Made by a program: the position numbers and the translations under genes. The notes beneath the pieces were generated by a model. It saw only the letters and a list, made by a program, of their open reading frames with translations, was not told the DNA's origin and made no database searches. From assembly GCA_026770705.1 (NCBI GenBank), contig JANJGN010000002.1, positions 106,950,001 to 107,014,000 on the forward strand: DNA of 64,000 nt, given 5' to 3'. Of this stretch, positions 1-64,000 are shown piece after piece (within the stretch, counting starts at the first letter, position 1; each line of letters starts with the position of its first letter). The DNA is from Isurus oxyrinchus. Taxonomy: Eukaryota.

Positions 1-282
1 GGTTTCTTTTCAACTGTATACCTTCAGTCCACTCTCCAGAAACCTGACTCGGGACAAGCAACTTGGAAGTTGAAACTTTGTTCGAGCTAAGTGAGGGTGT
101 TATATCTGTCAGTGAAGCTGCTTCTTCAGAACTTTTTCATTATGACTGAATAAATTGGACCAATGCCAAGCCTCACTCAGAGATCCAGGTCACTTTTTGC
201 CCCAAATGTTTCGGAGTTCCACAAGTGACTACGCATGCCTGCATGTTAGCATTTAAATGCAGTTTTTGTGCAAAAGCACAAG

Positions 283-724
283 CTTGTGCTGTAGCATTCT
301 TGCCTCTCACTTGCAGAACTGTAATTTCAAGCCAAATCGCAAGGTTGGAGTGCAAAAATGCAGTTGACACACAAGTGATTTACTGAGGGTGTGCTGCGCT
401 CTCAGAAGTGCTATGACGTGCATTTTACTTGAATCCGAAGCCATATCTCCCTTCTCTTGGGATGGTAAGAGGTCCCCTGGCGCTATTCCAATGAATAACA
501 GGGGGCTCCTACCTGCTGTCGTGGGCAATATTTAGCTCTCGGTCAGTATCATAAAAGACACGCAATATCTCCTCGATGCCGAATTGCTGTCTGGCGTTTG
601 CAAGCTACCTGCACGTTGGTGACATTAGAGCAGTGAACACATTTGAAACGCATTTCTTTGCCTGGAAAGTGCTTTCAGATTCGTGGCAATGATCAAACGC
701 GCTCTATAAATGTGTCGCTGTTTT
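283..724 (+). mobile_element. Decayed near-full-length tRNA-derived Deu-domain SINE (SacSINE1-like); recurs in every unit
   Basis: Colinear blocks resemble the recalled chondrichthyan DeuSINE consensus: GTAGCA(T/C)TCTTGCCTCT head, TACTGAGGGTGTGCTGC, CCC-TGGCGCTATT, CAGGGG, GGCAATATTTA, ATTGCTGT, AAAGTGCTTT, GCGCTCTATAAATG tail. The Pol III B-box is degenerate. Boundaries are approximate and the match is from memory. Confidence 0.65.
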
Positions 725-762
725 AACATATTGAGCCTTGACGAGAGTGCACAAAAAATCAA

Positions 763-780
763 TTACCCCAAAGTGCAATG
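763..780 (+). promoter_or_regulatory. SPH (Staf/ZNF143)-like motif of the snRNA distal sequence element; recurs in every unit
   Basis: TTACCCCAAAGTGCAATG resembles the SPH motif (YYWCCCRNMATSCMYY) and lies 10 bp upstream of an octamer, about 240 bp upstream of U5. Confidence 0.6.
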
Positions 781-790
781 TTGAACATGA

Positions 791-798
791 ATTTGCAT
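791..798 (-). promoter_or_regulatory. Octamer (Oct-1 site) of the snRNA distal sequence element; recurs in every unit
   Basis: ATTTGCAT is the perfect reverse complement of ATGCAAAT, at about -211 from the U5 start, the usual DSE position. Confidence 0.85.
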
Positions 799-939
799 AT
801 CGTGCAAGATTTGCAGCTGGCATGAGCGATGCTTGTTGCAGTCAATATTCTGGCATTGTAAAGAAAGATTTCCATGATTTTAGTCGCTGGAAATTGGTGT
901 CTTTTCATATTCTGAGTATTTAGGAGAACTGTTAGTTTG

Positions 940-957
940 TCACCACGGCTTTAGGAG
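940..957 (+). promoter_or_regulatory. Proximal sequence element (PSE, SNAPc site); recurs in every unit
   Basis: TCACCA(C/T)GGCTTTAGGAG at -62 to -45 resembles the vertebrate PSE (TCACCNTNASTNAAAAG). No TATA box lies between it and +1, as expected for a Pol II snRNA. Confidence 0.75.
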
Positions 958-2272: not shown

Positions 2273-3297
2273 ATATCTGAACAGAATAACCAGCACGGTT
2301 TCTTTTCAACTGTATACCTTCAGTCCACTCTCCAGAAACCTGACTCGGGACAAGCAACTTGGAAGTTGAAACTTTGTTCGAGCTAAGTGAGGGTGTTATA
2401 TCTGTCAGTGAAGCTGCTTCTTCAGAACTTTTTCATTATGACTGAATAAATTGGACCAATGCCAAGCCTCACTCAGAGATCCAGGTCACTTTTTGCCCCA
2501 AATGTTTCGGAGTTCCACAAGTGACTACGCATGCCTGCATGTTAGCATTTAAATGCAGTTTTTGTGCAAAAGCACAAGCTTGTGCTGTAGCATTCTTGCC
2601 TCTCACTTGCAGAACTGTAATTTCAAGCCAAATCGCAAGGTTGGAGTGCAAAAATGCAGTTGACACACAAGTGATTTACTGAGGGTGTGCTGCGCTCTCA
2701 GAAGTGCTATGACGTGCATTTTACTTGAATCCGAAGCCATATCTCCCTTCTCTTGGGATGGTAAGAGGTCCCCTGGCGCTATTCCAATGAATAACAGGGG
2801 GCTCCTACCTGCTGTCGTGGGCAATATTTAGCTCTCGGTCAGTATCATAAAAGACACGCAATATCTCCTCGATGCCGAATTGCTGTCTGGCGTTTGCAAG
2901 CTACCTGCACGTTGGTGACATTAGAGCAGTGAACACATTTGAAACGCATTTCTTTGCCTGGAAAGTGCTTTCAGATTCGTGGCAATGATCAAACGCGCTC
3001 TATAAATGTGTCGCTGTTTTAACATATTGAGCCTTGACGAGAGTGCACAAAAAATCAATTACCCCAAAGTGCAATGTTGAACATGAATTTGCATATCGTG
3101 CAAGATTTGCAGCTGGCATGAGCGATGCTTGTTGCAGTCAATATTCTGGCATTGTAAAGAAAGATTTCCATGATTTTAGTCGCTGGAAATTGGTGTCTTT
3201 TCATATTCTGAGTATTTAGGAGAACTGTTAGTTTGTCACCACGGCTTTAGGAGAGGGCTCTCACTTCTCACCAAGGATACTGTACCTGCTCTTTCAT

Positions 3298-3411
3298 AAG
3301 CTCCCAATTCTCTTCAATTCGTATAAATCTTTCGCCTTTTACTAAAGATTTCCGTGGAGAGAATTGATTGAGAGTTTTGAAGCAATTTTTGAATGCCTGA
3401 CCTCAGGCAGG
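3298..3411 (+). ncRNA. RNU5: U5 snRNA, copy 2
   Basis: Intact loop 1, Sm site and 3' hairpin; G77 allele. Confidence 0.96.
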
Positions 3412-5593
3412 TTTACTTGTCCAATGTGCAAAAACAGATGCCATTCAAACTATTTTTTCTGCCTGACTACTTTTTCTGCATATCAGTAGTGTTCCAGCGT
3501 GTTGCAATGCACAGCATTATTACAGCAGCCTTTCCAAAAAAAACACCATGAATCGATGCACTTTCCCAATCCTGATGCTGTCACGACGCTAGGTCTTTTC
3601 ACTCTTGATGCTTTCTACCTTCTGTGTTTCGCATTCCCCTCATAGCTGAGCCCTCGCTGACTGTTCTCAACTGTGTCTCCGCGTGCCTTGATAATTCTTC
3701 AAGCAAGCTGCTCATATTGAAAACAACACCCATAGATTGCGTCAGCTACCGGATTGATCAATTGCCTCCACAGGCCCCTTCTCGTCTTCAAAGCACCAGT
3801 ATAGTACGACTCCTTGCTTTAGTTTGTAACAACAAACAAATGTATTGTACTGAACAAGCAAGGAAATAACAGAAGTTTAAGACATACCTTTTCAAAGTTC
3901 ATTCATAACTTTCCTAACTCCATGTTTAAGGGAAACCAGTAAATGTTCTGCAAAGATAAAAGCAAAATACTGCACATGCTGGGAAACTGAAGCAAAAACA
4001 AAAATAGCTGGAAAACTCAGCAGGTCTGACAGCATACGTGGAGAGGAAGTCAGAGTTATCGTTTCCAGTCCGTATGAGTCTTCATCAGACCTCCATCAGA
4101 AGTGGTCTGCAAAGCTGCGCTAAACTGAGCGTAATCCAATGCCACATTTTACCCATCTGTTTGGCTTTACTTCAACATCAATGAGTACTCTCTTCTTGAA
4201 TGACAGGCTTCGTGGCACCCAGGCGCATTATCTTTGAAAGTCATTGATTTCAAAGCTAAAGTCATTGATTGAAAGGCTTTTGTTTGCAATGTACAAAGTA
4301 TCCAATCAATTCATACTTAGCTTCTTATCAGACACGTCAAGATAAAGACAGACTTGCATTATTTATCACTTCTCAAGTCCTCTGGACGTCCCAAATGTCA
4401 TCACTGCTAATCACGTGTTTGTGACGTCTAGTCACTTGTGATGTAGGAAATGCGGCAAGTAATGTGCACACAACAAACAGCAATGTGAGAATCACCAGGT
4501 AAAATGTTGTCATAAAGTGGATTCAAGACAAAACGTTGCTCACGCTACTGGGGAAGAACATGCTGCTCATATCTGAACAGAATAACCAGCACGGTTTCTT
4601 TTCAACTGTATACCTTCAGTCCACTCTCCTGAAACCTGACTCGGGACAAGCAACTTGGAAGTTGAAACTTTGTTCGAGCTAAGTGAGGGTGTTATATCTG
4701 TCAGTGAAGCTGCTTCTTCAGAACTTTTTCATTATGACTGAATAAATTGGACCAATGCCAAGCCTCACTCAGAGATCCAGGTCACTTTTTGCCCCAAATG
4801 TTTCGGAGTTCCACAAGTGACTACGCATGCCTGCATGTTAGCATTTAAATGCAGTTTTTGTGCAAAAGCACAAGCTTGTGCTGTAGCATTCTTGCCTCTC
4901 ACTTGCAGAACTGTAATTTCAAGCCAAATCGCAAGGTTGGAGTGCAAAAATGCAGTTGACACACAAGTGATTTTCTGAGGGTGTGCTGCGCTCTCAGAAG
5001 TGCTATGACGTGCATTTTACTTGAATCCGAAGCCATATCTCCCTTCTCTTGGGATGGTAAGAGGTCCCCTGGCGCTATTCCAATGAGTAACAGGGGGCTC
5101 CTACCTGCTGTCGTGGGCAATATTTAGCTCTCGGTCAGTATCATAAAAGACACGCACTATCTCCTCGATGCCGAATTGCTGTCTGGCGTTTGCAAGCTAC
5201 CTGCACGTTGGTGACATTAGAGCAGTGAACACATTTGAAACGCATTTCTTTGCCTGGAAAGTGCTTTCAGATTCGTGGCAATGATCAAACGCGCCCTATA
5301 AATGTGTCGCTGTTTTAACATATTGAGCCTTGACGAGAGTGCACAAAAAATCAATTACCCCAAAGTGCAATGTTGAACATGAATTTGCATATCGTGCAAG
5401 ATTTGCAGCTGGCATGAGCGATGCTTGTTGCAGTCAATATTCTGGCATTGTAAAGAAAGATTTCCATGATTTTAGTCGCTGGAAATTGGTGTCTTTTCAT
5501 ATTCTGAGTATTTAGGAGAACTGTTAGTTTGTCACCACGGCTTTAGGAGAGGGCTCTCACTTCTCACCAAGGATATTGTACCTGCTCTTTCTT

Positions 5594-10298: not shown

Positions 10299-12479
10299 TT
10301 GACTTGTCCAATGTGCAAAAACAGATGCCATTCAAGCTATTTTTTCTGCCTGACTACTTTTTCCGCATATCAGCAGTGCTCCAGCGTGTTGCAATGCACA
10401 GCATTATTACAGCAGCCTTTCCAAAAAAAACACCATGAATCGATGCACTTTCCCAATCCTGATCCTGTCACGACGCTAGGTCTTTTCACTCTTGATGCTT
10501 TCTACCTTCTGTGTTTCGCATTCCCCTCATAGCTGAGCCCTCGCTGACTGTTCTCAACTGTGTCTCCGCGTGCCTTGATAATTCTTCAAGCAAGCTGATC
10601 ATATTGAAAACAACACCCATAGATTGCGTCAGCTACCGGATTGATCAATTGCCTCCACAGGCCCCTTCTCGTCTTCAAAGCACCAGTATAGTACGACTCG
10701 TTGCTTTAGTTTGTAACAACAAACAAATGTATTGTACTGAACAAGCAAGGAAATAACAGAAGTTTAAGACATACCTTTTCAAAGTTCATTCATAACTTTC
10801 CTAACTCCATGTTTAAGGGAAACCAGTAAATGTTCTGCAAAGATAAAAGCAAAATACTGCACATGCTGGGAAACTGAAGCAAAAACAAAAATAGCTGGAA
10901 AACTCAGCAGGTCTGACAGCATCCGTGGAGAGGAAGTCAGAGTTATCGTTTCCAGTCCGTATGAGTCTTCATCAGACCTCCATCAGAAGTGGTCTGCAAA
11001 GCTGCGCTAAACTGAGCGTAATCCAATGCCACATTTTACCCATCTGTTTGGCTTTACTTCAACATCAATGAGTATTCTCTTCTTGAATGACAGGCTTCGT
11101 GGCACCCAGGCGCATTATCTTTGAAAGTCATTGATTTCAAAGCGAAAGTCATTGATTGAAAGGCTTTTGTTTGCAATGTACAAAGTATCCAATCAATTCA
11201 TACTTAGCTTCTTATCAGACACGTCAAGATAAAGACAGACTTGCATTATTTATCACTTCTCAAGTCCTCTGGACGTCCCAAATGTCATCACTGCTAATCA
11301 CGTGTTTGTGACGTCTAGTCACTTGTGATGGAGGAAATGTGGCAAGTAATGTGCACACAACAAACAGCAATGTGAGAATCACCAGGTAAAATGTTGTCAT
11401 AAAGTGGATTCAAGACAAAACGTTGCTCACGCTACTGGAGAAGAACATGCTGCTCATATCTGAACAGAATAACCAGCACGGTTTCTTTTCAACTGAATAC
11501 CTTCAGTCCACTCTCCAGAAACCTGACTCGGGACAAGCAACTTGGAAGTTGAAACTTTGTTCGAGCTAAGTGAGGGTGTTATATCTGTCAGTGAAGCTGC
11601 TTCTTCAGAACATTTTCATTATGACTGAATAAATTGGACCAGTGCCAAGCCTCACTCAGAGATCCAGGTCACTTTTTGCCCCAAATGTTTCGGAGTTCCA
11701 CAAGTGACTACGCATGCCTGCATTTTAGCATTTAAATGCAGTTTTTGTGCAAAAGCACAAGCTTGTGCTGTAGCACACTTCCTCTCACTTGCAGAACTGT
11801 AATTTCAAGCCAAATCGCAAGTTTTGAGTGCAACAATGCAGTTCACACAAAAGTGGTTTACTGAGGGTGTGCTGCGCTCTCAGAAGTGCTATGACATGCA
11901 TTTTACGTGAATCCGAAGCCACATCTCCCTTCTCTTGGGATGGTAAGAGGTCCCCTGGCGTTATTCCAATGAATAACAGGGGGCTCCTACCTGCTGTCGT
12001 GGGCAATATTTAGCTCTCGGTCAGTATCATAAAAGACACACACTATCTCCTCGTTGCCGAATTGCTGTCTGGCGTTTGCAAGTTACCTGCACATTGGTGA
12101 CATTAGAGCAGTGAACACATTTGAAACGCATTTCTTTGCCTGGAAAGTGCTTTCAGATTCGTGGCAATGATCAAACGCGCTCTATAAATGTGTCGCTGTT
12201 TTAACATATTGAGCCTTGACGAGAGTGCACAAAAAATCAATTACCCCAAAGTGCAATGTTGAACATGAATTTGCATATCGTGCAAGATTTGCAGCTGGCA
12301 TGAGCGATGCTTGTTGCAGTCAATATTCTGGCATTGTAAAGAAAGATTTCCATGATTTTAGTCGCTGGAAATTGGTGTCTTTTCATATTCTGAGTCTTTA
12401 GGAGAACTGTTAGTTTGTCACCATGGCTTTAGGAGAGGGCTCTCACTTCTCACCAAGGATATTGTACCTGCTCTTTTAT

Positions 12480-12593
12480 AAGCTCCCAATTCTCTTCAAT
12501 TCGTATAAATCTTTCGCCTTTTACTAAAGATTTCCGTGGAGAGAATTGATTGAGAATTTTGAAGCAATTTTTGAATGCCTGACCTCAGGCAGG
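12480..12593 (+). ncRNA. RNU5: U5 snRNA, copy 6
   Basis: Intact core; A77 allele. Confidence 0.96.
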
Positions 12594-14775: not shown

Positions 14776-14889
14776 AAGCTCCCAATTCTCTTCAATTCGT
14801 ATAAATCTTTCGCCTTTTACTAAAGATTTCCGTGGAGAGAATTGATTGAGAGTTTTGAAGCAATTTTTGAATGCCTGACCTCAGGCAGG
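14776..14889 (+). ncRNA. RNU5: U5 snRNA, copy 7
   Basis: Intact core; G77; 3' box ends CAGT. Confidence 0.95.
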
Positions 14890-17071: not shown

Positions 17072-17185
17072 AAGCTCCCAATTCTCTTCAATTCGTATAA
17101 ATCTTTCGCCTTTTACTAAAGATTTCCGTGGAGAGAATTGATTGAGAGTTTTGAAGCAATTTTTGAATGCCTGACCTCAGGCAGG
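17072..17185 (+). ncRNA. RNU5: U5 snRNA, copy 8
   Basis: Intact core; G77. Confidence 0.96.
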
Positions 17186-19367: not shown

Positions 19368-19481
19368 AAGCTCCCAATTCTCTTCAATTCGTATAAATCT
19401 TTCGCCTTTTACTAAAGATTTCCGTGGAGAGAATTGATTGAGAATTTTGAAGCAATTTTTGAATGCCTGACCTCAGGCAGG
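19368..19481 (+). ncRNA. RNU5: U5 snRNA, copy 9
   Basis: Intact core; A77. Confidence 0.96.
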
Positions 19482-21663: not shown

Positions 21664-21777
21664 AAGCTCCCAATTCTCTTCAATTCGTATAAATCTTTCG
21701 CCTTTTACTAAAGATTTCCGTGGAGAGAATTGATTGAGAGTTTTGAAGCAATTTTTGAATGCCTGACCTCAGGCAGG
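21664..21777 (+). ncRNA. RNU5: U5 snRNA, copy 10
   Basis: Intact core; G77; 3' box ends CAGT. Confidence 0.95.
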
Positions 21778-23959: not shown

Positions 23960-24073
23960 AAGCTCCCAATTCTCTTCAATTCGTATAAATCTTTCGCCTT
24001 TTACTAAAGATTTCCGTGGAGAGAATTGATTGAGAGTTTTGAAGCAATTTTTGAATGCCTGACCTCAGGCAGG
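23960..24073 (+). ncRNA. RNU5: U5 snRNA, copy 11
   Basis: Intact core; G77. Confidence 0.96.
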
Positions 24074-46917: not shown

Positions 46918-47031
46918 AAGCGCCCAATTCTCTTCAATTCGTATAAATCTTTCGCCTTTTACTAAAGATTTCCGTGGAGAGAATTGATTGAGAATTTTGA
47001 AGCAATTTTTGAATGCCTGACCTCAGGCAGG
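46918..47031 (+). ncRNA. RNU5: U5 snRNA, copy 21
   Basis: Intact core; starts AAGCGC (T5G); A77. Confidence 0.94.
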
Positions 47032-49205: not shown

Positions 49206-49319
49206 AAGCTCCCAATTCTCTTCAATTCGTATAAATCTTTCGCATTTTACTAAAGATTTCCGTGGAGAGAATTGATTGAGAATTTTGAAGCAATTTTTGA
49301 ATGCCTGACCTCAGGCAGG
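49206..49319 (+). ncRNA. RNU5: U5 snRNA, copy 22 (loop 1 C39A variant)
   Basis: Loop 1 reads GCATTTTAC (A at 49244); the rest is intact. Confidence 0.9.
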
Positions 49320-51501
49320 TTTACTTGTCCAATGTGCAAAAACAGATGCCATTCAAGCTATTTTTTCTGCCTGACTACTTTTTCCGCATATCAGTAGTGC
49401 TCCAGCGTGTTGCAATGCACAGCATTATTACAGCAGCCTTTCCAAAAATAACACCATGAATCGATGCACTTTCCCAATCCTGATGCTGTCACGACGCTAG
49501 GTCTTTTCACTCTTGATGCTTTCTACCTTCTGTGTTTCGCATTCCCCTCATAGCTGAGCCCTCGCTGACTGTTCTCAACTGTGTCTCCGCGTGCCTTGAT
49601 AATTCTTCAAGCAAGCTTCTCATATTGAAAACAACACCCATAGATTGCGTCAGCTACCGGATTGATCAATTGCCTCCACAGGCCCCTTCTCGTCTTCAAA
49701 GCACCAGTATAGTACGACTCCTTGCTTTAGTTTGTAACAACAAACAAATGTATTGTACTGAACAAGCAAGGAAATAACAGAAGTTTAAGACATACCTTTT
49801 CAAAGTTCATTCATAACTTTCCTAACTCCATGTTTAAGGGAAACCAGTAAATGTTCTGCAAAGATAAAAGCAAAATACTGCACATGCTGGGAAACTGAAG
49901 CAAAAACAAAAATAGCTGGAAAACGCAGCAGGTCTGACAGCATCCGTGGAGAGGAAGTCAGAGTTATCGTTTCCAGTCCGTATGAGTCTTCATCAGACCT
50001 CCATCAGAAGTGGTCTGCAAAGCTGCGCTAAACTGAGCGTAATCCAATGCCACATTTTACCCATCTGTTTGGCTTTACTTCAACATCAATGAGTACTCTC
50101 TTCTTGAATGACAGGCTTCGTGGCACCCAGGCGCATTATCTTTGAAAGTCATTGATTTCAAAGCTAAAGTCATTGATTGAAAGGCTTTTGTTTGCAATGT
50201 ACAAAGTATCCAATCAATTCATAGTTAGCTTCTTATCAGACACGTCAAGATAAAGACAGACTTGCATTATTTATCACTTCTCAAGTCCTCTGGACGTCCC
50301 AAATGTCATCACTGCTAATCACGTGTTTGTGACGTCTAGTCACTTGTGATGTAGGAAATGCGGCAAGTAATGTGCACACAACAAACAGCAATGTGAGAAT
50401 CACCAGGTAAAATGTTGTCATAAAGTGGATTCAAGACAAAACGTTGCTCACGCTACTGGAGAAGAACATGCTGCTCATATCTGAACAGAATAACCAGCAC
50501 GGTTTCTTTTCAACTGAATACCTTCAGTCCACTCTCCACAAACCTGACTCGGGACAAGCAACTTGGAAGTTGAAACTTTGTTTGAGCTAAGTGAGGGTGT
50601 TATATCTGTCAGTGAAGCTGCTTCTTCAGAACTTTTTCATTATGACTGAATAAATTGGACCAATGCCAAGCCTCACTCAGAGATCCAGGTCACTTTTTGC
50701 CCCAAATGTTTCGCAGTTCCACAAGTGACTACGCATGCCTGCATTTTAGCAGTTAAATGCAGTTTTTGTGCAAAAGCACAAGCTTGTGCTGTAGCATTCT
50801 TGCCTCTCACTTGCAGAACTGTAATTTCAAGCCAAATTGCAAGGTTGGAGTGCAAAAATGCAGTTGACACACAAGTGATTTACTGAGGGTGTGCTGCGCT
50901 CTCAGAAGTGCTATGACGTGCATTTTACGTGAATCCGAAGCCATATCTCCCTTCTCTTGGGATGGTAAGAGGTCCCCTGGCGCTATTCCAATGAATAACA
51001 GGGGGCTCCTACCTGCTGTCGTGGGCAATATTTAGCTCTCGGTCAGTATCATAAAAGACACGCACTATCTCCTCGTTGCCGAATTGCTGTCTGGCGTTTG
51101 CAAGTTACATGCACGTTGGTGACATTAGAGCAGTGAACACATTTGAAACGCATTTCTTTGCCTGGAAAGTGCTTTCAGATTCGTGGCAATGATCAAACGC
51201 GCTCTATAAATGTGTCGCTGTTTTAACATATTGAGCCTTGACGAGAGTGCACAAAAAATCAATTACCCCAAAGTGCAATGTTGAACATGAATTTGCATAT
51301 CGTGCAAGATTTGCAGCTGGCATGAGCGATGCTTGTTGCAGTCAATATTCTGGCATTGTAAAGAAAGATTTCCATGATTTTAGTCGCTGGAAATTGGTGT
51401 CTTTTCATATTCTGAGTCTTTAGGAGAACTGTTAGTTTGTCACCACGGCTTTAGGAGAGGGCTCTCACTTCTCACCAAGGATATTGTACCTGCTCTTTTA
51501 T

Positions 51502-51615
51502 AAGCTCCCAATTCTCTTCAATTCGTATAAATCTTTCGCCTTTTACTAAAGATTTCCGTGGAGAGAATTGATTGAGAATTTTGAAGCAATTTTTGAATGC
51601 CTGACCTCAGGCAGG
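51502..51615 (+). ncRNA. RNU5: U5 snRNA, copy 23
   Basis: Intact core; A77. Confidence 0.96.
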
Positions 51616-53789
51616 TTTACTTGTCCAATGTGCAAAAACAGATGCCATTCAAACTATTTTTTCTGCCTGACTACTTTTTCTGCATATCAGTAGTGTTCCA
51701 GCGTGTTGCAATGCACAGCATTATTACAGCAGCCTTTCCAAAAAAAACACCATGAATCGATGCACTTTCCCAATCCTGATGCTGTCACGACGCTAGGTCT
51801 TTTCACTCTTGATGCTTTCTACCTTCTGTGTTTCGCATTCCCCTCATAGCTGAGCCCTCGCTGACTGTTCTCAACTGTGTCTCCGCGTGCCTTGATAATT
51901 CTTCAAGCAAGCTGCTCATATTGAAAACAACACCCATAGATTGCGTCAGCTACCGGATTGATCAATTGCCTCCACAGGCCCCTTCTCGTCTTCAAAGCAC
52001 CAGTATAGTACGACTCCTTGCTTTAGTTTGTAACAACAAACAAATGTATTGTACTGAACAAGCAAGGAAATAACAGAAGTTTAAGACATACCTTTTCAAA
52101 GTTCATTCATAACTTTCCTAACTCCATGTTTAAGAGAAACCAGTAAATGTTCTGCAAAGATAAAAGCAAAATACTGCACATGCTGGGAAACTGAAGCAAA
52201 AACAAAAATAGCTGGAAAACGCAGCAGGTCTGACAGCATCTGTGGAGAGGAAGTCAGAGTTATCGTTTCCAGTCCGTATGAGTCTTCATCAGACCTCCAT
52301 CAGAAGTGGTCTGCAAAGCTGGGCTAAACAGAGCGTAATGCAATGCCACATTTTACCCATCTGTTTGGCTTTACTTCAACATCTATGAGTGTTCTCTTCT
52401 TGAATGACAGGCTTCGTGGCACCCAGGTGCATTATCTTTGAAGGCTCGAAAGCAAAAGTCATTGATTGAAAGGCTTTTGTTTGCAATGTACAAAGTATCC
52501 AATCAATTCATACTTAGCTTCTTATCAGACACGTCAAGATAAAGACAGACTTGCATTATTTATCACTTCTCAAGTCCTCTGGACGTCCCAAATGTCATCA
52601 CGGCTAATCACGTGTTTGTGACGTCTAGTCACTTGTGATGTAGGAAATGCGGCAAGTAATGTGCACACAACAAACAGCAATGTGAGAATCACCAGGTAAA
52701 ATGTTGTCATAAAGTGGATTCAAGACAAAACGTTGCTCACGCTACTGGAGAAGAACATGCTGCTCATATCTGAACAGAATAACCAGCACGGTTTCTTTTC
52801 AACTGAATACCTTCAGTCCACTCTCCAGAACCCTGACTCGGGACAAGCAACTTGGAAGTTGAAACTTTGTTCGAGCTAAGTGAGGGTGTTATATCTGTCA
52901 GTGAAGCTGCTTCTTCAGAACTTTTTCATTATGACTGAATAAATTGGACCAGTGCCAAGCCTCACTCAGAGATCCAGGTCACTTTTTGCCCCAAATGTTT
53001 CGGAGTTCCACAAGTGACTACGCATGCCTGCATTTTAGCATTTAAATGCAGTTTTTGTGCAAAAGCACAAGCTTGTGCTGTAGCACTCTTCCTCTCACTT
53101 GCAGAAATGTAATTTCAAGCCAAATCGCAAGATTTGAGTGCAACAATGCAGTTCACACACAAGTGGTTTACTGAGGGTGTGCTGCGCTCTCAGAAGTGCT
53201 ATGACATGCATTTTACGTGAATCCGAAGCCACATCTCCCTTCTCTTGGGATGGTAAGAGGTCCCCTGGCGCTATTCCAATGAATAACAGGGGGCTCCTAC
53301 CTGCTGTCGTGGGCAATATTTAGCTCTCGGTCAGTATCATAAAAGACACACACTATCTCCTCGTTGCCGAATTGCTGTCTGGCGTTTGCAAGTTACCTGC
53401 ACATTGGTGACATTAGAGCAGTGAACACATTTGAAACGCATTTCTTTGCCTGGAAAGTGCTTTCAGATTCGTGGCAATGATCAAACGCGCTCTATAAATG
53501 TGTCGCTGTTTTAACATATTGAGCCTTGACGAGAGTGCACAAAAAATCAATTACCCCAAAGTGCAATGTTGAACATGAATTTGCATATTGTGCAAGATTT
53601 GCAGCTGGCATGAGCGATGCTTGTTGCAGTCAATATTCTGGCATTGTAAAGAAAGATTTCCATGATTTTAGTCGCTGGAAATTGGTGTCTTTTCATATTC
53701 TGAGTCTTTAGGAGAACTGTTAGTTTGTCACCATGGCTTTAGGAGAGGGCTCTCACTTCTCACCAAGGATATTGTACCTGCTCTTTTAT

Positions 53790-53903
53790 AAGCTCCCAAT
53801 TCTCTTCAATTCGTATAAATCTTTCGCATTTTACTAAAGATTTCCGTGGAGAGAATTGATTGAGAATTTTGAAGCTATTTTTGAATGCCTGACCTCAGGC
53901 AGG
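53790..53903 (+). ncRNA. RNU5: U5 snRNA, copy 24 (loop 1 C39A plus Sm-site A87T)
   Basis: GCATTTTAC (A at 53828); the Sm site reads TATTTTTG (T at 53876). Confidence 0.88.
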
Positions 53904-56085
53904 TTTACTTGTCCAATGTGCAAAAACAGATGCCATTCAAGCTATTTTTTCTGCCTGACTACTTTTTCCACATATCAGTAGTGCTCCAGCGTGTTGCAAT
54001 GCACAGCATTATTACAGCAGCCTTTCCAAAAATAACACCATGAATCGATGCACTTTCCCAATCCTGATGCTGTCACGACGCTAGGTCTTTTCACTCTTGA
54101 TGCTTTCTACCTTCTGTGTTTCGCATTCCCCTCATAGCTGAGCCCTCGCTGACTGTTCTCAACTGTGTCTCCGCGTGCCTTGATAATTCTTCAAGCAAGC
54201 TTCTCATATTGAAAACAACACCCATAGATTGCGTCAGCTACTGGATTGATCAATTGCCTCCACAGGCCCCTTCTCGTCTTCAAAGCACCAGTATAGTACG
54301 ACTCCTTGCTTTAGTTTGTAACAACAAACAAATGTATTGTACTGAACAAGCAAGGAAATAACAGAAGTTTAAGACATACCTTTTCAAAGTTCATTCATAA
54401 CTTTCCTAACTCCATGTTTAAGGGAAACCAGTAAATGTTCTGCAAAGATAAAAGCAAAATACTGCACATGCTGGGAAACTGAAGCAAAAACAAAAATAGC
54501 TGGAAAACGCAGCAGGTCTGACAGCATCCGTGGAGAGGAAGTCAGAGTTATCGTTTCCAGTCCGTATGAGTCTTCATCAGACCTCCATCAGAAGTGGTCT
54601 GCAAAGCTGCGCTAAACTGAGCGTAATCCAATGCCACATTTTACCCATCTGTTTGGCTTTACTTCAACATCAATGAGTACTCTCTTCTTGAATGACAGGC
54701 TTCGTGGCACCCAGGCGCATTATCTTTGAAAGTCATTGATTTCAAAGCTAAAGTCATTGATTGAAAGGCTTTTGTTTGCAATGTACAAAGTATCCAATCA
54801 ATTCATAGTTAGCTTCTTATCAGACACGTCAAGATAAAGACAGACTTGCATTATTTATCACTTCTCAAGTCCTCTGGACGTCCCAAATGTCATCACTGCT
54901 AATCACGTGTTTGTGACGTCTAGTCACTTGTGATGTAGGAAATGCGGCAAGTAATGTGCACACAACAAACAGCAATGTGAGAATCACCAGGTAAAATGTT
55001 GTCATAAAGTGGATTCAAGACAAAACGTTGCTCACGCTACTGGAGAAGAACATGCTGCTCATATCTGAACAGAATAACCAGCACGGTTTCTTTTCAACTG
55101 AATACCTTCAGTCCACTCTCCAGAAACCTGACTCGGGACAAGCAACTTGGAAGTTGAAACTTTGTTTGAGCTAAGTGAGGGTGTTATATCTGTCAGTGAA
55201 GCTGCTTCTTCAGAACTTTTTCATTATGACTGAATAAATTGGACCAATGCCAAGCCTCACTCAGAGATCCAGGTCACTTTTTGCCCCAAATGTTTCGCAG
55301 TTCCACAAGTGACTACGCATGCCTGCATTTTAGCAGTTAAATGCAGTTTTTGTGCAAAAGCACAAGCTTGTGCTGTAGCATTCTTGCCTCTCACTTGCAG
55401 AACTGTAATTTCAAGCCAAATCGCAAGGTTGGAGTGCAAAAATGCAGTTGACACACAAGTGATTTACTGAGGGTGTGCTGCGCTCTCAGAAGTGCTATGA
55501 CGTGCATTTTACGTGAATCCGAAGCCATATCTCCCTTCTCTTGGGATGGTAAGAGGTCCCCTGGCGCTATTCCAATGAATAACAGGGGGCTCCTACCTGC
55601 TGTCGTGGGCAATATTTAGCTCTCGGTCAGTATCATAAAAGACACGCACTATCTCCTCGTTGCCGAATTGCTGTCTGGCGTTTGCAAGTTACCTGCACGT
55701 TGGTGACATTAGAGCAGTGAACACATTTGAAACGCATTTCTTTGCCTGGAAAGTGCTTTCAGATTCGTGGCAATGATCAAACGCGCTCTATAAATGTGTC
55801 GCTGTTTTAACATATTGAGCCTTGACGAGAGTGCACAAAAAATCAATTACCCCAAAGTGCAATGTTGAACATGAATTTGCATATCGTGCAAGATTTGCAG
55901 CTGGCATGAGCGATGCTTGTTGCAGTCAATATTCTGGCATTGTAAAGAAAGATTTCCATGATTTTAGTCGCTGGAAATTGGTGTCTTTTAATATTCTGAG
56001 TATTTAGGAGAACTGTTAGTTTGTCACCACGGCTTTAGGAGAGGGCTCTCACTTCTCACCAAGGATATTGTACCTGCTCTTTCAG

Positions 56086-56199
56086 AAGCTCCCAATTCTC
56101 TTCAATTCGTATAAATCTTTCGCCTTTTACTAAAGATTTCCGTGGAGAGAATTGATTGAGAATTTTGAAGCAATTTTTGAATGCCTGACCTCAGGCAGG
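56086..56199 (+). ncRNA. RNU5: U5 snRNA, copy 25
   Basis: Intact core; A77; the -1 base is G rather than T. Confidence 0.95.
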
Positions 56200-58373
56200 T
56201 TTACTTGTCCAATGTGCAAAAACAGATGCCATTCAAACTATTTTTTCTGCCTGACTACTTTTTCTGCATATCAGTAGTGTTCCAGCGTGTTGCAATGCAC
56301 AGCATTATTACAGCAGCCTTTCCAAAAAAAACACCATGAATCGATGCACTTTCCCAATCGTGATGCTGTCACGACGCTAGGTCTTTTCACTCTTGATGCT
56401 TTCTACCTTCTGTGTTTCGCATTCCCCTCATAGCTGAGCCCTCGCTGACTGTTCTCAACTGTGTCTCCGCGTGCCTTGATAATTCTTCAAGCAAGCTTCT
56501 CATATTGAAAACAACACCCATAGATTGCGTCAGCTACCGGATTGATCAATTGCCTCCACAGGCCCCTTCTCGTCTTCAAAGCACCAGTATAGTACGACTC
56601 CTTGCTTTAGTTTGTAACAACAAACAAATGTATTGTACTGAACAAGCAAGGAAATAACAGAAGTTTAAGACATACCTTTTCAAAGTTCATTCATAACTTT
56701 CCTAACTCCATGTTTAAGAGAAACCAGTAAATGTTCTGCAAAGATAAAAGCAAAATACTGCACATGCTGGGAAACTGAAGCAAAAACAAAAATAGCTGGA
56801 AAACGCAGCAGGTCTGACAGCATCTGTGGAGAGGAAGTCAGAGTTATCGTTTCCAGTCCGTATGAGTCTTCATCAGACCTCCATCAGAAGTGGTCTGCAA
56901 AGCTGGGCTAAACAGAGCGTAATGCAATGCCACATTTTACCCATCTGTTTGGCTTTACTTCAACATCTATGAGTGCTCTCTTCTTGAATGACAGGCTTCG
57001 TGGCACCCAGGTGCATTATCTTTGAAGGCTCGAAAGCAAAAGTCATTGATTGAAAGGCTTTTGTTTGCAATGTACAAAGTATCCAATCAATTCATACTTA
57101 GCTTCTTATCAGACACGTCAAGATAAAGACAGACTTGCATTATTTATCACTTCTCAAGTCCTCTGGACGTCCCAAATGTCATCACGGCTAATCACGTGTT
57201 TGTGACGTCTAGTCACTTGTGATGTAGGAAATGCGGCAAGTAATGTGCACACAACAAACAGCAATGTGAGAATCACCAGGTAAAATGTTGTCATAAAGTG
57301 GATTCAAGACAAAACGTTGCTCACGCTACTGGAGAAGAACATGCTGCTCATATCTGAACAGAATAACCAGCACGGTTTCTTTTCAACTGAATACCTTCAG
57401 TCCACTCTCCAGAAACCTGACTCGGGACAAGCAACTTGGAAGTTGAAACTTTGTTCGAGCTAAGTGAGGGTGTTATATCTGTCAGTGAAGCTGCTTCTTC
57501 AGAACTTTTTCATTATGACTGAATAAATTGGACCAGTGCCAAGCCTCACTCAGAGATCCAGGTCACTTTTTGCCCCAAATGTTTCGGAGTTCCACAAGTG
57601 ACTACGCATGCCTGCATTTTAGCATTTAAATGCAGTTTTTGTGCAAAAGCACAAGCTTGTGCTGTAGCACTCTTCCTCTCACTTGCAGAAATGTAATTTC
57701 AAGCCAAATCGCAAGATTTGAGTGCAACAATGCAGTTCACACACAAGTGGTTTACTGAGGGTGTGCTGCGCTCTCAGAAGTGCTATGACATGCATTTTAC
57801 GTGAATCCGAAGCCACATCTCCCTTCTCTTGGGATGGTAAGAGGTCCCCTGGCGCTATTCCAATGAATAACAGGGGGCTCCTACCTGCTGTCGTGGGCAA
57901 TATTTAGCTCTCGGTCAGTATCATAAAAGACACACACTATCTCCTCGTTGCCGAATTGCTGTCTGGCGTTTGCAAGTTACCTGCACATTGGTGACATTAG
58001 AGCAGTGAACACATTTGAAACGCATTTCTTTGCCTGGAAAGTGCTTTCAGATTCGTGGCAATGATCAAACGCGCTCTATAAATGTGTCGCTGTTTTAACA
58101 TATTGAGCCTTGACGAGAGTGCACAAAAAATCAATTACCCCAAAGTGCAATGTTGAACATGAATTTGCATATCGTGCAAGATTTGCAGCTGGCATGAGCG
58201 ATGCTTGTTGCAGTCAATATTCTGGCATTGTAAAGAAAGATTTCCATGATTTTAGTCGCTGGAAATTGGTGTCTTTTCATATTCTGAGTCTTTAGGAGAA
58301 CTGTTAGTTTGTCACCATGGCTTTAGGAGAGGGCTCTCACTTCTCACCAAGGATATTGTAGCTGCTCTTTTAT

Positions 58374-58487
58374 AAGCTCCCAATTCTCTTCAATTCGTAT
58401 AAATCTTTCGCCTTTTACTAAAGATTTCCGTGGAGAGAATTGATTGAGAATTTTGAAGCAATTTTTGAATGCCTGACCTCAGGCAGG
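58374..58487 (+). ncRNA. RNU5: U5 snRNA, copy 26
   Basis: Intact core; A77. Confidence 0.96.
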
Positions 58488-60669
58488 TTTACTTGTCCAA
58501 TGTGCAAAAACAGATGCCATTCAAACTATTTTTTCTGCCTGACTACTTTTCCCGCATATCAGTAGTGCTCCAGCGTGTTGCAATGCACAGCATTATTACA
58601 GCAGCCTTTCCAAAAAAAACACCATGAATCGATGCACTTTCCCAATCCTGATGCTGTCACGACGCTAGGTCTTTTCACTCTTGATGCTTTCTACCTTCTG
58701 TGTTTCGCATTCCCCTCATAGCTGAGCCCTCGCTGACTGTTCTCAACTGTGTCTCCGCGTGCCTTGATAATTCTTCAAGCAAGCTTCTCATATTGAAAAC
58801 AACACCCATAGATTGCGTCAGCTACCGGATTGATCAATTGCCTCCACAGGCCCCTTCTCGTCTTCAAAGCACCAGTATAGTACGACTCCTTGCTTTAGTT
58901 TGTAACAACAAACAAATGTATTGTACTGAACAAGCAAGGAAATAACAGAAGTTTAAGACATACCTTTTCAAAGTTCATTCATAACTTTCCTAACTCCATG
59001 TTTAAGGGAAACCAGTAAATGTTCTGCAAAGATAAAAGCAAAATACTGCACATGCTGGGAAACTGAAGCAAAAACAAAAATAGCTGGAAAACGCAGCAGG
59101 TCTGACAGCATCTGTGGAGAGGAAGTCAGAGTTATCGTTTCCAGTCCGTATGAGTCTTCATCAGACCTCCATCAGAAGTGGTCTGCAAAGCTGCGCTAAA
59201 CTGAGCGTAATCCAATGCCACATTTTACCCATCTGTTTGGCTTTACTTCAACATCAATGAGTACTCTCTTCTTGAATGACAGGCTTCGTGGCACCCAGGC
59301 GCATTATCTTTGAAAGTCATTGATTTCAAAGCGAAAGTCATTGATTGAAAGGCTTTTGTTTGCAATGTACAAAGTATCCAATCAATTCATAGTTAGCTTC
59401 TTATCAGACACGTCAAGATAAAGACAGACTTGCATTATTTATCACTTCTCAAGTCCTCTGGACGTCCCAAATGTCATCACTGCCAATCACGTGTTTGTGA
59501 CGTCTAGTCACTTGTGATGTAGGAAATGCGGCAAGTAATGTGCACACAACAAACAGCAATGTGAGAATCACCACGTAAAATGTTGTCATAAAGTGGATTC
59601 AAGACAAAACGTTGCTCACGCTACTGGAGAAGAACATGCTGCTCATATCTGAACAGAATAACCAGCACGGTTTCTTTTCAACTGAATACCTTCAGTCCAC
59701 TCTCCAGAAACCTGACTCGGGTCAAGCAACTTGGAAGTTGAAACTTTGTTTGAGCTAAGTGAGGGTGTTATATCTGTCAGTGAAGCTGCTTCTTCAGAAC
59801 TTTTTCATTATGACTGAATAAATTGGACCAATGCCAAGCCTCACTCAGAGATCCAGGTCACTTTTTGCCCCAAATGTTTCGCAGTTCCACAAGTGACTAC
59901 GCATGCCTGCATTTTAGCAGTTAAATGCAGTTTTTGTGCAAAAGCACAAGCTTGTGCTGTAGCATTCTTGCCTCTCACTTGCAGAACTGTAATTTCAAGC
60001 CAAATTGCAAGGTTGGAGTGCAAAAATGCAGTTGACACACAAGTGATTTACTGAGGGTGTGCTGCGCTCTCAGAAGTGCTATGACGTGCATTTTACGTGA
60101 ATCCGAAGCCATATCTCCCTTCTCTTGGGATGGTAAGAGGTCCCCTGGCGCTATTCCAATGAATAACAGGGGGCTCCTACCTGCTGTCGTGGGCAATATT
60201 TAGCTCTCGGTCAGTATCATAAAAGACACGCACTATCTCCTCGTTGCCGAATTGCTGTCTGGCGTTTGCAAGTTACCTGCACGTTGGTGACATTAGAGCA
60301 GTGAACACATTTGAAACGCATTTCTTTGCCTGGAAAGTGCTTTCAGATTCGTGGCAATGATCAAACGCGCTCTATAAATGTGTCGCTGTTTTAACATATT
60401 GAGCCTTGACGAGAGTGCACAAAAAATCAATTACCCCAAAGTGCAATGTTGAACATGAATTTGCATATCGTGCAAGATTTGCAGCTGGCATGAGCGATGC
60501 TTGTTGCAGTCAATATTCTGGCATTGTAAAGAAAGATTTCCATGATTTTAGTCGCTGGAAATTGGTGTCTTTTCATATTCTGAGTATTTAGGAGAACTGT
60601 TAGTTTGTCACCACGGCTTTAGGAGAGGGCTCTCACTTCTCACCAAGGATATTGTACCTGCTCTTTCAT

Positions 60670-60783
60670 AAGCTCCCAATTCTCTTCAATTCGTATAAAT
60701 CTTTCGCCTTTTACTAAAGATTTCCGTGGAGAGAATTGATTGAGAATTTTGAAGCAATTTTTGAATGCCTGACCTCAGGCAGG
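60670..60783 (+). ncRNA. RNU5: U5 snRNA, copy 27
   Basis: Intact core; A77. Confidence 0.96.
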
Positions 60784-62957
60784 TTTACTTGTCCAATGTG
60801 CAAAAACAGATGCCATTCAAACTATTTTTTCTGCCTGACTACTTTTTCTGCATATCAGTAGTGTTCCAGCGTGTTGCAATGCACAGCATTATTACAGCAG
60901 CCTTTCCAAAAAAAACACCATGAATCGATGCACTTTCCCAATCCTGATGCTGTCACGACGCTAGGTCTTTTCACTCTTGATGCTTTCTACCTTCTGTGTT
61001 TCGCATTCCCCTCATAGCTGAGCCCTCGCTGACTGTTCTCAACTGTGTCTCCGCGTGCCTTGATAATTCTTCAAGCAAGCTTCTCATATTGAAAACAACA
61101 CCCATAGATTGCGTCAGCTACCGGATTGATCAATTGCCTCCACAGGCCCCTTCTCGTCTTCAAAGCACCAGTATAGTACGACTCCTTGCTTTAGTTTGTA
61201 ACAACAAACAAATGTATTGTACTGAACAAGCAAGGAAATAACAGAAGTTTAAGACATACCTTTTCAAAGTTCATTCATAACTTTCCTAACTCCATGTTTA
61301 AGAGAAACCAGTAAATGTTCTGCAAAGATAAAAGCAAAATACTGCACATGCTGGGAAACTGAAGCAAAAACAAAAATAGCTGGAAAACGCAGCAGGTCTG
61401 ACAGCATCTGTGGAGAGGAAGTCAGAGTTATCGTTTCCAGTCCGTATGAGTCTTCATCAGACCTCCATCAGAAGTGGTCTGCAAAGCTGGGCTAAACAGA
61501 GCGTAATGCAATGCCACATTTTACCCATCTGTTTGGCTTTACTTCAACATCTATGAGTGCTCTCTTCTTGAATGACAGGCTTCGTGGCACCCAGGTGCAT
61601 TATCTTTGAAGGCTCGAAAGCAAAAGTCATTGATTGAAAGGCTTTTGTTTGCAATGTACAAAGTATCCAATCAATTCATACTTAGCTTCTTATCAGACAC
61701 GTCAAGATAAAGACAGACTTGCATTATTTATCACTTCTCAAGTCCTCTGGACGTCCCAAATGTCATCACGGCTAATCACGTGTTTGTGACGTCTAGTCAC
61801 TTGTGATGTAGGAAATGCGGCAAGTAATGTGCACACAACAAACAGCAATGTGAGAATCACCAGGTAAAATGTTGTCATAAAGTGGATTCAAGACAAAACG
61901 TTGCTCACGCTACTGGAGAAGAACATGCTGCTCATATCTGAACAGAATAACCAGCACGGTTTCTTTTCAACTGAATACCTTCAGTCCACTCTCCACAAAC
62001 CTGACTCGGGACAAGCAACTTGGAAGTTGAAACTTTGTTCGAGCTAAGTGAGGGTGTTATATCTGTCAGTGAAGCTGCTTCTTCAGAACTTTTTCATTAT
62101 GACTGAATAAATTGGACCAGTGCCAAGCCTCACTCAGAGATCCAGGTCACTTTTTGCCCCAAATGTTTCGAAGTTCCACAAGTGACTACGCATGCCTGCA
62201 TTTTAGCATTTAAATGCAGTTTTTGTGCAAAAGCACAAGCTTGTGCTGTAGCACTCTTCCTCTCACTTGCAGAAATGTAATTTCAAGCCAAATCGCAAGA
62301 TTTGAGTGCAACAATGCAGTTCACACACAAGTGGTTTACTGAGGGTGTGCTGCGCTCTCAGAAGTGCTATGACATGCATTTTACGTGAATCCGAAGCCAC
62401 ATCTCCCTTCTCTTGGGATGGTAAGAGGTCCCCTGGCGCTATTCCAATGAATAACAGGGGGCTCCTACCTGCTGTCGTGGGCAATATTTAGCTCTCGGTC
62501 AGTATCATAAAAGACACACACTATCTCCTCGTTGCCGAATTGCTGTCTGGCGTTTGCAAGTTACCTGCACATTGGTGACATTAGAGCAGTGAACACATTT
62601 GAAACGCATTTCTTTGCCTGGAAAGTGCTTTCAGATTCGTGGCAATGATCAAACGCGCTCTATAAATGTGTCGCTGTTTTAACATATTGAGCCTTGACGA
62701 GAGTGCACAAAAAATCAATTACCCCAAAGTGCAATGTTGAACATGAATTTGCATATCGTGCAAGATTTGCAGCTGGCATGAGCGATGCTTGTTGCAGTCA
62801 ATATTCTGGCATTGTAAAGAAAGATTTCCATGATTTTAGTCGCTGGAAATTGGTGTCTTTTCATATTCTGAGTCTTTAGGAGAACTGTTAGTTTGTCACC
62901 ACGGCTTTAGGAGAGGGCTCTCACTTCTCACCAAGGATATTGTACCTGCTCTTTTAT

Positions 62958-63071
62958 AAGCTCCCAATTCTCTTCAATTCGTATAAATCTTTCGCCTTTT
63001 ACTAAAGATTTCCGTGGAGAGAATTGATTGAGAATTTTGAAGCAATTTTTGAATGCCTGACCTCAGGCAGG
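62958..63071 (+). ncRNA. RNU5: U5 snRNA, copy 28
   Basis: Intact core; A77. Confidence 0.96.
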
Positions 63072-64000
63072 TTTACTTGTCCAATGTGCAAAAACAGATG
63101 CCATTCAAGCTATTTTTTCTGCCTGACTACTTTTTCCGCATATCAGTAGTGCTCTAGCGTGTTGCAATGCACAGCATTATTACAGCAGCCTTTCCAAAAA
63201 AAACACCATGAATCGATGCACTTTCCCAATCCTGATGCTGTCACGACGCTAGGTCTTTTCACTCTTGATGCTTTCTACCTTCTGTGTTTCGCATTCCCCT
63301 CATAGCTGATCCCTCGCTGACTGTTCTCAACTGTGTCTCCGCGTGCCTTGATAATTCTTCAAGCAAGCTTCTCATATTGAAAACAACACCCATAGATTGC
63401 GTCAGCTACCGGATTGATCAATTGCCTCCACAGGCCCCTTCTCGTCTTCAAAGCACCAGTATAGTACGACTCCTTGCTTTAGTTTGTAACAACAAACAAA
63501 TGTATTGTACTGAACAAGCAAGGAAATAACAGAAGTTTAAGACATACCTTTTCAAAGTTCATTCATAACTTTCCTAACTCCATGTTTAAGGGAAACCAGT
63601 AAATGTTCTGCAAAGATAAAAGCAAAATACTGCACATGCTGGGAAACTGAAGCAAAAACAAAAATAGCTGGAAAACGCAGCAGGTCTGACAGCATCTGTG
63701 GAGAGGAAGTCAGAGTTATCGTTTCCAGTCCGTATGAGTCTTCATCAGACCTCCATCAGAAGTGGTCTGCAAAGCTGCGCTAAACTGAGCGTAATCCAAT
63801 GCCACATTTTACCCATCTGTTTGGCTTTACTTCAACATCAATGAGTACTCTCTTCTTGAATGACAGGCTTCGTGGCACCCAGGCGCATTATCTTTGAAAG
63901 TCATTGATTTCAAAGCTAAAGTCATTGATTGAAAGGCTTTTGTTTGCAATGTACAAAGTATCCAATCAATTCATAGTTAGCTTCTTATCAGACACGTCAA

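What the first reader, a model, noticed from the sequence alone, without database searches (positions are those of the whole stretch)
1..64000. What looks like a 2.3-kb macrosatellite is a tandem array of at least 28 complete U5 snRNA transcription units
Seen: every unit has SPH-like motif, perfect octamer, PSE, U5 body and 3' box at constant spacing, and the array runs off both ends. Established: this is the vertebrate Pol II snRNA gene architecture; human U2 genes form a tandem array (RNU2) while human U5 genes are few and not arrayed. Inference: this is an RNU2-style, concertedly evolving U5-only locus, probably in a cartilaginous fish. Tandem snRNA genes are known in some amphibians and fishes, so any novelty would lie in the lineage and scale, which I cannot verify.
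Basis: partly seen in the sequence, partly recalled or inferred. Interest (0 to 1): 0.72.

Follow-up and report, generated by a model that had tools for sequence, protein, structure and literature searches.

The report
Shark array of divergent U5 genes
A chromosome of what is likely a shark carries 59 head-to-tail copies of a gene for a second form of the splicing RNA U5, about a quarter different from the animal's ordinary U5 genes, which likely stocks eggs and early embryos as reported in zebrafish, though its expression is untested.

Summary
Confirmed, with an addition. All 28 units pass the Rfam U5 cut-off (78.9-95.6 bits, cut-off 40). The whole array is 138.5 kb with 59 full U5 genes; 57 of 59 units are distinct and the mean difference is 1.7%. 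A second species holds the unit at about 96%, so it is no assembly artefact. This is the layout of zebrafish maternal-type U5. Past germ-line transcription is implied by about seven processed retrocopies and by a 3.3-fold excess of rare substitutions from -100 to +200. That excess recurs in this genome's U2 array (3.5-3.8x) and is weaker in its Pol III U6 array (1.7x). Against an egg-specific reading: canonical U5 left as many retrocopies, no U4/U6 co-variation was seen, and no RNA data were available. Tandem, stage-specific snRNA genes are known in fish; my searches found no shark report. The scan noted a similar array in another shark-type genome. New member of a known kind.

The parts
1..64000 (+). 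Central part (28 of 59 genes) of a 138.5-kb tandem array of 2.3-kb units, each with one divergent U5 gene
2298..4593 (+). One reference unit (2296 bp), cut 1000 bp upstream of the U5 start
3060..3078 (+). SPH-like element (-238 to -220); identical in 28 of 28 window units; label from a recalled consensus
3087..3094 (+). Perfect octamer (distal element) at -211; canonical C2 U5 genes have a perfect or one-mismatch octamer at -212 to -214
3235..3255 (+). PSE (-63 to -43); no TATA box between it and the start
3298..3413 (+). Divergent U5 snRNA gene (example; the others start at 1002, 5594, 7889 ... 62958). The true start may lie 2 nt upstream
3384..3391 (+). Sm site, one U shorter than in the canonical U5 genes of this genome
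3426..3438 (+). 3' box-like element 13 nt after the RNA end
   Evidence: not ranked by the matrix test
3198..3497 (+). Zone (-100 to +200) with 3.3-fold excess of rare substitutions across 58 units
3952..4092 (.). Fragment of a very abundant interspersed repeat carried in every unit
12476..26250 (+). Three-unit higher-order repeat (window units 6-12; units 7 and 10 identical, 8 and 11 differ at 2 sites)
45918..64000 (+). Two-unit higher-order repeat (alternating 2288/2296-bp spacing, units 21-28)

Best explanation
This is a real tandem array of 59 Pol II-type genes for a second, divergent U5 snRNA isoform, likely transcribed in the germ line and likely serving as the high-output egg and early-embryo (maternal-type) U5, while eight canonical genes elsewhere would supply somatic cells. 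Steps. (1) Shown: each unit has octamer, PSE, U5 body and a 3' box-like motif at the standard spacing. (2) Inferred from established snRNA biology: Oct-1 and SNAPc recruit Pol II, Integrator cuts upstream of the 3' box, and the RNA gets an Sm ring and a TMG cap. (3) Shown: loop 1 and the inner stems are nearly the same as in canonical U5, while the outer stem, Sm flank and 3' hairpin are rebuilt but still fold; so it is predicted to align exons normally and differ only at the periphery. (4) Shown: units exchange sequence and form 2- and 3-unit higher-order repeats; inferred: unequal crossover and conversion keep the array uniform and apart from the canonical genes. (5) Inferred by analogy with zebrafish: high copy number serves oocyte stockpiling.
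For: Two U5 classes: 29-31 differences over 116-117 columns, with the central 57-nt core 53-54 of 57 identical; the four canonical genes compared are 88.6-98.2% identical to each other. Array MFE -30.4 kcal/mol, z -2.8 against 200 shuffles; the 3' hairpin folds in both old and present states (-10.0, -9.2). Processed copies: 13 of 55 exact matches to an array-type 27-mer lie outside the array. Six of the 7 single sites end at +109 to +118 and are joined to the same SINE-like head, 4 of them with 9-15-bp target-site-duplication candidates; six C29 copies share one junction. Rare (1-2 copy) substitutions: 74 in 300 bp around the gene against 133 in 1796 bp of spacer (3.3x, p 1e-14; the same without CpG). 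Copying from 20 candidate donor stretches does not explain it (11 matched, 12.1 by chance). It recurs in the U2 array (3.8x on 96 units, 3.5x on the first 62) and is weaker in the Pol III U6 array (1.7x), as reported for transcribed Pol II snRNA genes (bioRxiv 10.64898/2026.10.12.758683). Organism B contigs (2 studies) cover promoter, spacer and 3' end at about 96-97%. Zebrafish maternal U5 differs 41% from somatic, keeps loop 1 and its stem, and lies in strict repeats (bioRxiv 10.1101/858944). U2, U4 and U6 also have high-copy variant classes here.
Against: No direct expression data. Canonical U5 left about as many promoterless copies (8, of which 6 have the SINE head) as the array type (about 7 events), so the germ line held both. 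The 4 retrocopies that clearly cover position 110 carry the edge-unit base, not the one in 58 of 59 present units, so they record an older state of the array. Within the array the U5 body shows no purifying signal (pi 0.025 against 0.017 in spacer), and only 36 of 59 units match the majority at loop 1, Sm site, octamer and PSE core together. Partner classes are far less divergent (U2 8 of 191, U6 2 internal changes, U4 19 of 141). No divergent U1 array appeared among the 42 scored hits, and the U4 and U6 variants show no co-variation.
Confidence: 0.52

Rival explanations
1. The array is an active bulk source of U5 with no egg specificity (ubiquitous, or testis-biased). Its divergence is only the result of concerted evolution in isolation from the dispersed genes, sped up by local hypermutation.
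For: Both classes were retrocopied about equally. The promoter has ordinary elements. No U4/U6 co-variation, and U2 and U6 array variants are nearly canonical. [quoted passage not shown]
Against: A 25-27% divergent, high-copy class beside few human-like genes is the pattern that proved egg-specific in zebrafish.
Confidence: 0.3
2. The array was once active but is now under relaxed selection or silent (birth-and-death decay); the excess variation in the gene reflects loss of constraint.
For: 31 distinct U5 bodies in 59 units; 13 of 59 with loop-1 changes and 10 of 59 with Sm changes; retrocopies match the older state; most array copies score below the best canonical genes in Rfam.
Against: Loss of constraint gives spacer-level variation, not 3.3 times more, and the excess extends into both flanks. 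The near-canonical U2 array shows the same excess. The majority sequence is intact, the octamer is kept in 57 of 59, and the unit is kept in a second species.
Confidence: 0.14
3. The array is an assembly expansion of one or a few genes.
For: The U2 array of the same assembly has a block of 25 identical unit pairs at lag 30, so such expansions may occur here.
Against: 57 of 59 U5 units are distinct with only two identical pairs. Edge units are diverged and joined to non-array flanks with no N. Unit contigs in organism B run X6 have depth 1068-1469 against 20-26 for two other long contigs, a rough hint of many copies.
Confidence: 0.03

Closest known systems
Zebrafish maternal-type U5 snRNA genes (Pagano et al., bioRxiv 10.1101/858944; parts 1-2 of 3 read, figures and supplements not seen)
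   Same: Two U5 classes in one genome; the variant keeps loop 1 and its stem and differs elsewhere; it is high-copy and strictly repeated, with retrotransposon interruptions; the other class has few genes.
   Different: 25-27% divergence here against 41%. Egg-specific expression is shown there and untested here. No U4/U6 co-evolved pair and no divergent U1 array were seen here. Common ancestry of the two variant U5s was not tested.
Human RNU2-1 tandem array (PMC7073466, passages: 6-kb unit, 10-20 copies; five named human U5 genes)
   Same: Single-gene head-to-tail array of Pol II snRNA units with interspersed repeats in the spacer.
   Different: RNU2 encodes the canonical housekeeping RNA; this array encodes a divergent isoform of U5, in a 2.3-kb unit with 59 copies.
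Teleost U2-U5 and U1-U2-U5 snDNA repeats (PMC3464664, passages)
   Same: U5 genes in a tandem repeat with PSE and 3' box at one chromosomal site.
   Different: Those units link U5 to U2; this one is U5-only. There the U5 gene is no more variable than its spacers (pi 0.009 against 0.010 and 0.031).
Xenopus tandem U5 genes and embryonic U1/U4 isoforms (Kazmaier 1987 not held, recalled; developmental switching from PMC4291461 passages)
   Same: Repeated snRNA genes; stage-biased isoforms.
   Different: Tandem organisation of Xenopus U5 is from recall only; divergence not compared.
Germ-line hypermutability of Pol II spliceosomal snRNA genes (bioRxiv 10.64898/2026.10.12.758683; part 1 of 7 and passages)
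   Same: Excess of rare variants at Pol II snRNA genes, much less at U6. Size here (3.3-3.8x) is near the chicken value (2.4-3.1x).
   Different: Measured among paralogs of one assembly, not in a population. Spectrum is flat (37 of 74 at A:T; 13 of 37 C:G changes in TC context against 19 of 73 in spacer). The paper did not list a fish among its species.

Membership tests
U5 snRNA (RF00020) | Covariance-model score above the gathering cut-off, full length | tested here: met
   28 of 28 at 78.9-95.6 bits against 40
U5 snRNA (RF00020) | Conserved loop 1 on stem Ic | tested here: met
   Majority matches the Rfam consensus; intact in 25 of 28 window units and 46 of 59 overall
U5 snRNA (RF00020) | Single-stranded Sm site followed by a 3' stem-loop | tested here: met
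   Sm intact in 27 of 28 and 49 of 59; 3' hairpin -9.2 kcal/mol
U5 snRNA (RF00020) | TMG cap, Sm ring, incorporation into tri-snRNP | not testable with these tools
   Needs immunoprecipitation
Vertebrate Pol II snRNA gene | Octamer distal element near -220 | tested here: met
   Perfect octamer at -211 in 28 of 28; the only perfect octamers in the window
Vertebrate Pol II snRNA gene | PSE near -60 without TATA | tested here: met
   Rank 4 of 4554 sites, at -63, with a matrix from 12 non-array genes; modest score of 3.7 bits. No TATA in the sequence
Vertebrate Pol II snRNA gene | SPH (ZNF143) element | tested here: inconclusive
   Conserved 19-mer (54 of 59 identical), likeness to a recalled consensus only
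Vertebrate Pol II snRNA gene | 3' box 9-19 nt after the RNA end | tested here: inconclusive
   Right position and close to the C29 U5 boxes; not in the top 8 of the ungapped matrix scan
RNU2-type concerted tandem array | Head-to-tail single-gene units, highly homogeneous | tested here: met
   59 units, mean 1.7% difference
RNU2-type concerted tandem array | Exchange among units | tested here: met
   1995 of 5671 site pairs fail the four-gamete test; 2- and 3-unit higher-order repeats
RNU2-type concerted tandem array | Encodes the canonical, main RNA | tested here: not met
   73-75% identical to canonical U5 genes of the same genome
RNU2-type concerted tandem array | Copy-number polymorphism between individuals | not testable with these tools
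   Only contigs available
Zebrafish-like maternal-type snRNA | Divergent high-copy tandem class beside few canonical genes, loop 1 kept | tested here: met
   59 against 8 genes found
Zebrafish-like maternal-type snRNA | Paired classes for all five major snRNAs | tested here: inconclusive
   U2, U4, U6 have high-copy variant classes; none seen for U1 among the 42 scored hits, 14 aligned
Zebrafish-like maternal-type snRNA | Co-evolved pair in the U4/U6 helix | tested here: not met
   The U6 array changes (18, 25) lie outside the U4-pairing part; duplex energies do not depend on the U6 class
Zebrafish-like maternal-type snRNA | Near-exclusive expression in eggs and early embryos | not testable with these tools
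   Needs staged RNA
Zebrafish-like maternal-type snRNA | Orthology with zebrafish maternal U5 | not tested
   The zebrafish sequence is in figures and supplements that were not available

The most novel reading that the evidence does not exclude
Sharks run a dedicated maternal U5 snRNP from this array, with companion U2, U4 and U6 high-copy classes, so an egg-specific spliceosome is not a zebrafish oddity but a jawed-vertebrate trait, inherited or repeatedly rebuilt around U5. The same arrays record a 3-4-fold, Pol II-biased, transcription-linked mutation hotspot in a lineage without APOBEC3 (absence recalled), readable from a single assembly.
Probability: 0.25. Interest if true: 0.75.

Novelty: new member of a known kind. 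Interest (0 to 1): 0.45.

Why it matters
Maternal-type snRNAs rest mainly on one zebrafish preprint. A shark array with the same layout, and an isoform easy to tell apart by RT-PCR, lets one ask directly whether an egg-specific U5 is general in jawed vertebrates and whether it changes splicing. Separately, the rare-variant footprint over the U5 and U2 genes, weak over U6, offers an APOBEC3-free baseline for the debated hypermutability of snRNA genes.

Tried and rejected
U5-targeted Tx1-like LINE: the left edge joins a LINE poly(A) to U5 +38, but only 1 of 30 closest 3' ends, the query itself, is followed by U5; rejected. PMC4494074's figure legend lists U5 as a known Tx1 target, so the idea would not have been new. 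Conversion from edge copies, canonical genes or retrocopies as the source of the rare-variant excess: rejected. U4/U6 co-variation: not found. A second large array with this promoter: unlikely, 69 candidates genome-wide and all 40 scored are in this array. Expression: no RNA holder listed; the guessed-RNA run X20 gave one 256-nt spacer contig at depth 2.6 besides repeat matches, which is no evidence either way. The contig laying did not include the U5 core, so organism B's core sequence is unseen. Lower diversity at -380 to -90 (pi 0.007, p 0.002) was a window chosen after seeing the data; the plain -300 to -1 window gives p 0.04, so it is not relied on. ARAGORN found no tRNA in four SINE-joined loci, so 'tRNA-derived' for that head is only a recalled likeness. 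The protein atlas gave no lineage. Paper searches for a shark report: 'U5 snRNA, tandem, array, shark' 0 hits; 'maternal-type, snRNA, oocyte, shark' 0 hits; 'snRNA, elasmobranch, tandem, genome' 11 hits, none on this by title or abstract start. Subscription papers (for example Marz 2008, Kazmaier 1987) were not seen.
Full report
Observation. The window is a pure tandem repeat with a period of 2288-2296 bp. Rfam finds 28 full-length U5 genes on +, 78.9-95.6 bits against a cut-off of 40, and nothing else. The window is G000:C2:106,950,001-107,014,000 in a 4.98-Gb genome. With 100 kb fetched on each side, the array spans 106,881,363-107,019,835 without N and holds 59 full-length U5 genes. Both ends break inside a U5 body. 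On the left a LINE poly(A) tail joins U5 +38; the element has endonuclease, RT, ZCCHC3-type RNA-binding and zinc-knuckle domains, and 'Tx1-like' is my recalled label. On the right an unrelated repeat follows U5 +28. The last units are only 94-95% identical to the core.

Gene anatomy. Each unit has an SPH-like 19-mer at -238, a perfect octamer at -211, a PSE at -63, no TATA, the U5 body, and a 3' box-like motif 13 nt downstream. A PSE matrix built from 12 non-array U1, U2, U4 and U5 genes ranks the -63 site 4th of 4554. The same test did not rank the 3' box in the top 8; it resembles the C29 U5 boxes with one A fewer. In the window loop 1 is intact in 25 of 28 units and the Sm site in 27 of 28. 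Over the array 36 of 59 units match the majority at loop 1, Sm site, octamer and PSE core together.

Real and homogenised. 57 of 59 units are distinct, the mean difference among the first 58 is 1.7%, and 1995 of 5671 site pairs fail the four-gamete test. Two- and three-unit higher-order repeats occur, and only two unit pairs are identical. Contigs of a second sample of organism A match parts of the spacer, and contigs of organism B from two studies cover promoter, spacer and 3' end at about 96-97%. An assembly expansion is very unlikely.

What was missed: two U5 classes. The genome-wide Rfam search (48 hits scored) and a pattern search show eight canonical, human-like U5 genes with their own PSE: three about 550 kb away on C2 and five on C29. 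The array majority is 73-75% identical to the four compared, which are 88.6-98.2% identical to each other. The central 57-nt core is 53-54 of 57 identical; the first 10 nt, the 3' strand of the outer stem and the 3' hairpin are about half changed, and the Sm site is one U shorter. The isoform still folds as U5 (z -2.8). Only one clean two-sided compensatory pair was counted against each of two canonical genes; the rest is a rebuilt register.

Signs of transcription. First, processed copies. An exact 27-mer from the array-type 3' half has 55 matches, 42 in the array and 13 outside. Six of seven single sites stop at +109 to +118 and are fused to one SINE-like head, four with target-site-duplication candidates; the seventh runs to +127 without it; six C29 copies share one junction inside a satellite. 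So array-type RNA was made, 3'-processed and reverse-transcribed in cells that pass DNA on. Two limits apply. The four copies that clearly cover position 110 carry the base of the diverged edge unit, not that of 58 of 59 present units. Canonical U5 left eight such copies, six with the same head. Second, a mutation footprint. With the diverged last unit dropped (58 units), alleles seen once or twice number 74 in the 300 bp from -100 to +200 and 133 in 1796 bp of spacer (3.3x, p 1e-14; body alone 3.7x; unchanged without CpG). The best 116-bp window of the unit sits on the body. The excess holds in both halves of the array and for singletons and doubletons, and 20 candidate donor stretches do not explain it. 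The U2 array on C30 repeats it (3.8x on 96 units; 3.5x on the first 62, before a repeated block). The Pol III U6 array on C13 gives only 1.65x on 66 units and 1.74x on 65. This matches the Pol II bias in bioRxiv 10.64898/2026.10.12.758683 (part 1 of 7 and passages read), at the size given for chicken. The spectrum is flat, with half the changes at A:T. These are paralog differences in one assembly, so sequencing error and uneven homogenisation are not excluded, and units are not independent, so the p values are optimistic.

How it most likely works. Shown: intact majority genes, a divergent isoform, exchange among units. Inferred from standard snRNA biology: Pol II transcription through octamer and PSE, 3' cutting, Sm assembly. 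Inferred by analogy: a maternal role. In zebrafish the egg U5 differs 41% from the somatic one, keeps loop 1 and its stem, and sits in strict repeats broken by retrotransposons (bioRxiv 10.1101/858944, parts 1-2 of 3; figures, table and supplements not seen). Here U4 has two canonical genes and a high-copy class differing at 19 of 141 positions, U2 an array of at least 97 copies differing at 8 of 191, and U6 an array of at least 68 copies with two internal changes. But no divergent U1 array appeared among the 42 scored hits and there is no U4/U6 co-variation. I put the maternal reading at 0.52, an active array without egg specificity at 0.30, decay at 0.14 and artefact at 0.03.

Known and new. 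Tandem U5 genes are known from teleost U2-U5 repeats (PMC3464664, passages) and zebrafish; Xenopus is from recall (not held). Human U2 is arrayed and human U5 has five named genes (PMC7073466, passages). Developmental isoform switching is general (PMC4291461, passages). PMC8457000, PMC12054243, PMC4494074 and PMC2288978 were seen as passages only. My searches found no shark report, within a library that lacks most subscription papers. The scan's notes hold a like finding in another shark-type genome; I had reached this reading before, and that note is not independent evidence. Verdict: a real U5 gene array, a new member of a known kind (it works like the zebrafish maternal-type array; membership is unproven), interest 0.45.

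Noticed in passing
G000:C30:301,801-530,148 (L127-L146): U2-only tandem array, about 2.05-kb unit, 97 starts in the 200 kb fetched; 25 identical unit pairs at lag 30 suggest a recent block duplication or an assembly expansion.
   Followed up: partly
G000:C13:50.83-50.95 Mb (L162-L173): U6 tandem array, 1.76-kb unit, 68 starts in 120 kb, two internal changes from canonical U6.
   Followed up: partly
G000:C38, C42, C100, C146 (L078-L087); also C131, C26: High-copy U4 variant (19 of 141 changes) with its own PSE and octamer-like site, inside a repeated segment of at least 3 kb dispersed over megabases on both strands.
   Followed up: partly
L039, L088-L092, L094, L147, L148, L152-L154, L161, L174, L175, L178, L179: Chimeric retrocopies in which U5 (both classes) or U6 is fused 5' of the same short SINE-like head; looks like a shark counterpart of mammalian snRNA/LINE chimeras.
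   Followed up: partly
G000:C29:38,862-158,376 (L042, L044, L045, L094): One array-type U5-SINE retrocopy amplified to six copies inside a short-period satellite.
   Followed up: partly
G000:C2:106,898,017; 106,902,878; 106,912,329 (L015-L017): Three array units carry the same roughly 269-bp partly palindromic insertion, spread by unit duplication.
   Followed up: partly
L013:1498-6180 and L021:8360-8530: Degenerate pieces of the unit, including an orphan U5 (67.1 bits), lie among transposons on both flanks: remains of an older, larger array.
   Followed up: partly
L013:6175-6210: The 5' end of the left LINE begins with a stretch that looks like the U1 snRNA 5' end (likeness by eye).
   Followed up: no
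L022:4698-5643: Six weak tRNA-like Rfam hits (30-37 bits) in about 1 kb on the minus strand, probably a tandem of tRNA-derived repeats.
   Followed up: no
G000:C29:0.19-1.12 Mb and C4767: Canonical U1 and U2 genes lie linked in repeats of about 15-20 kb.
   Followed up: no
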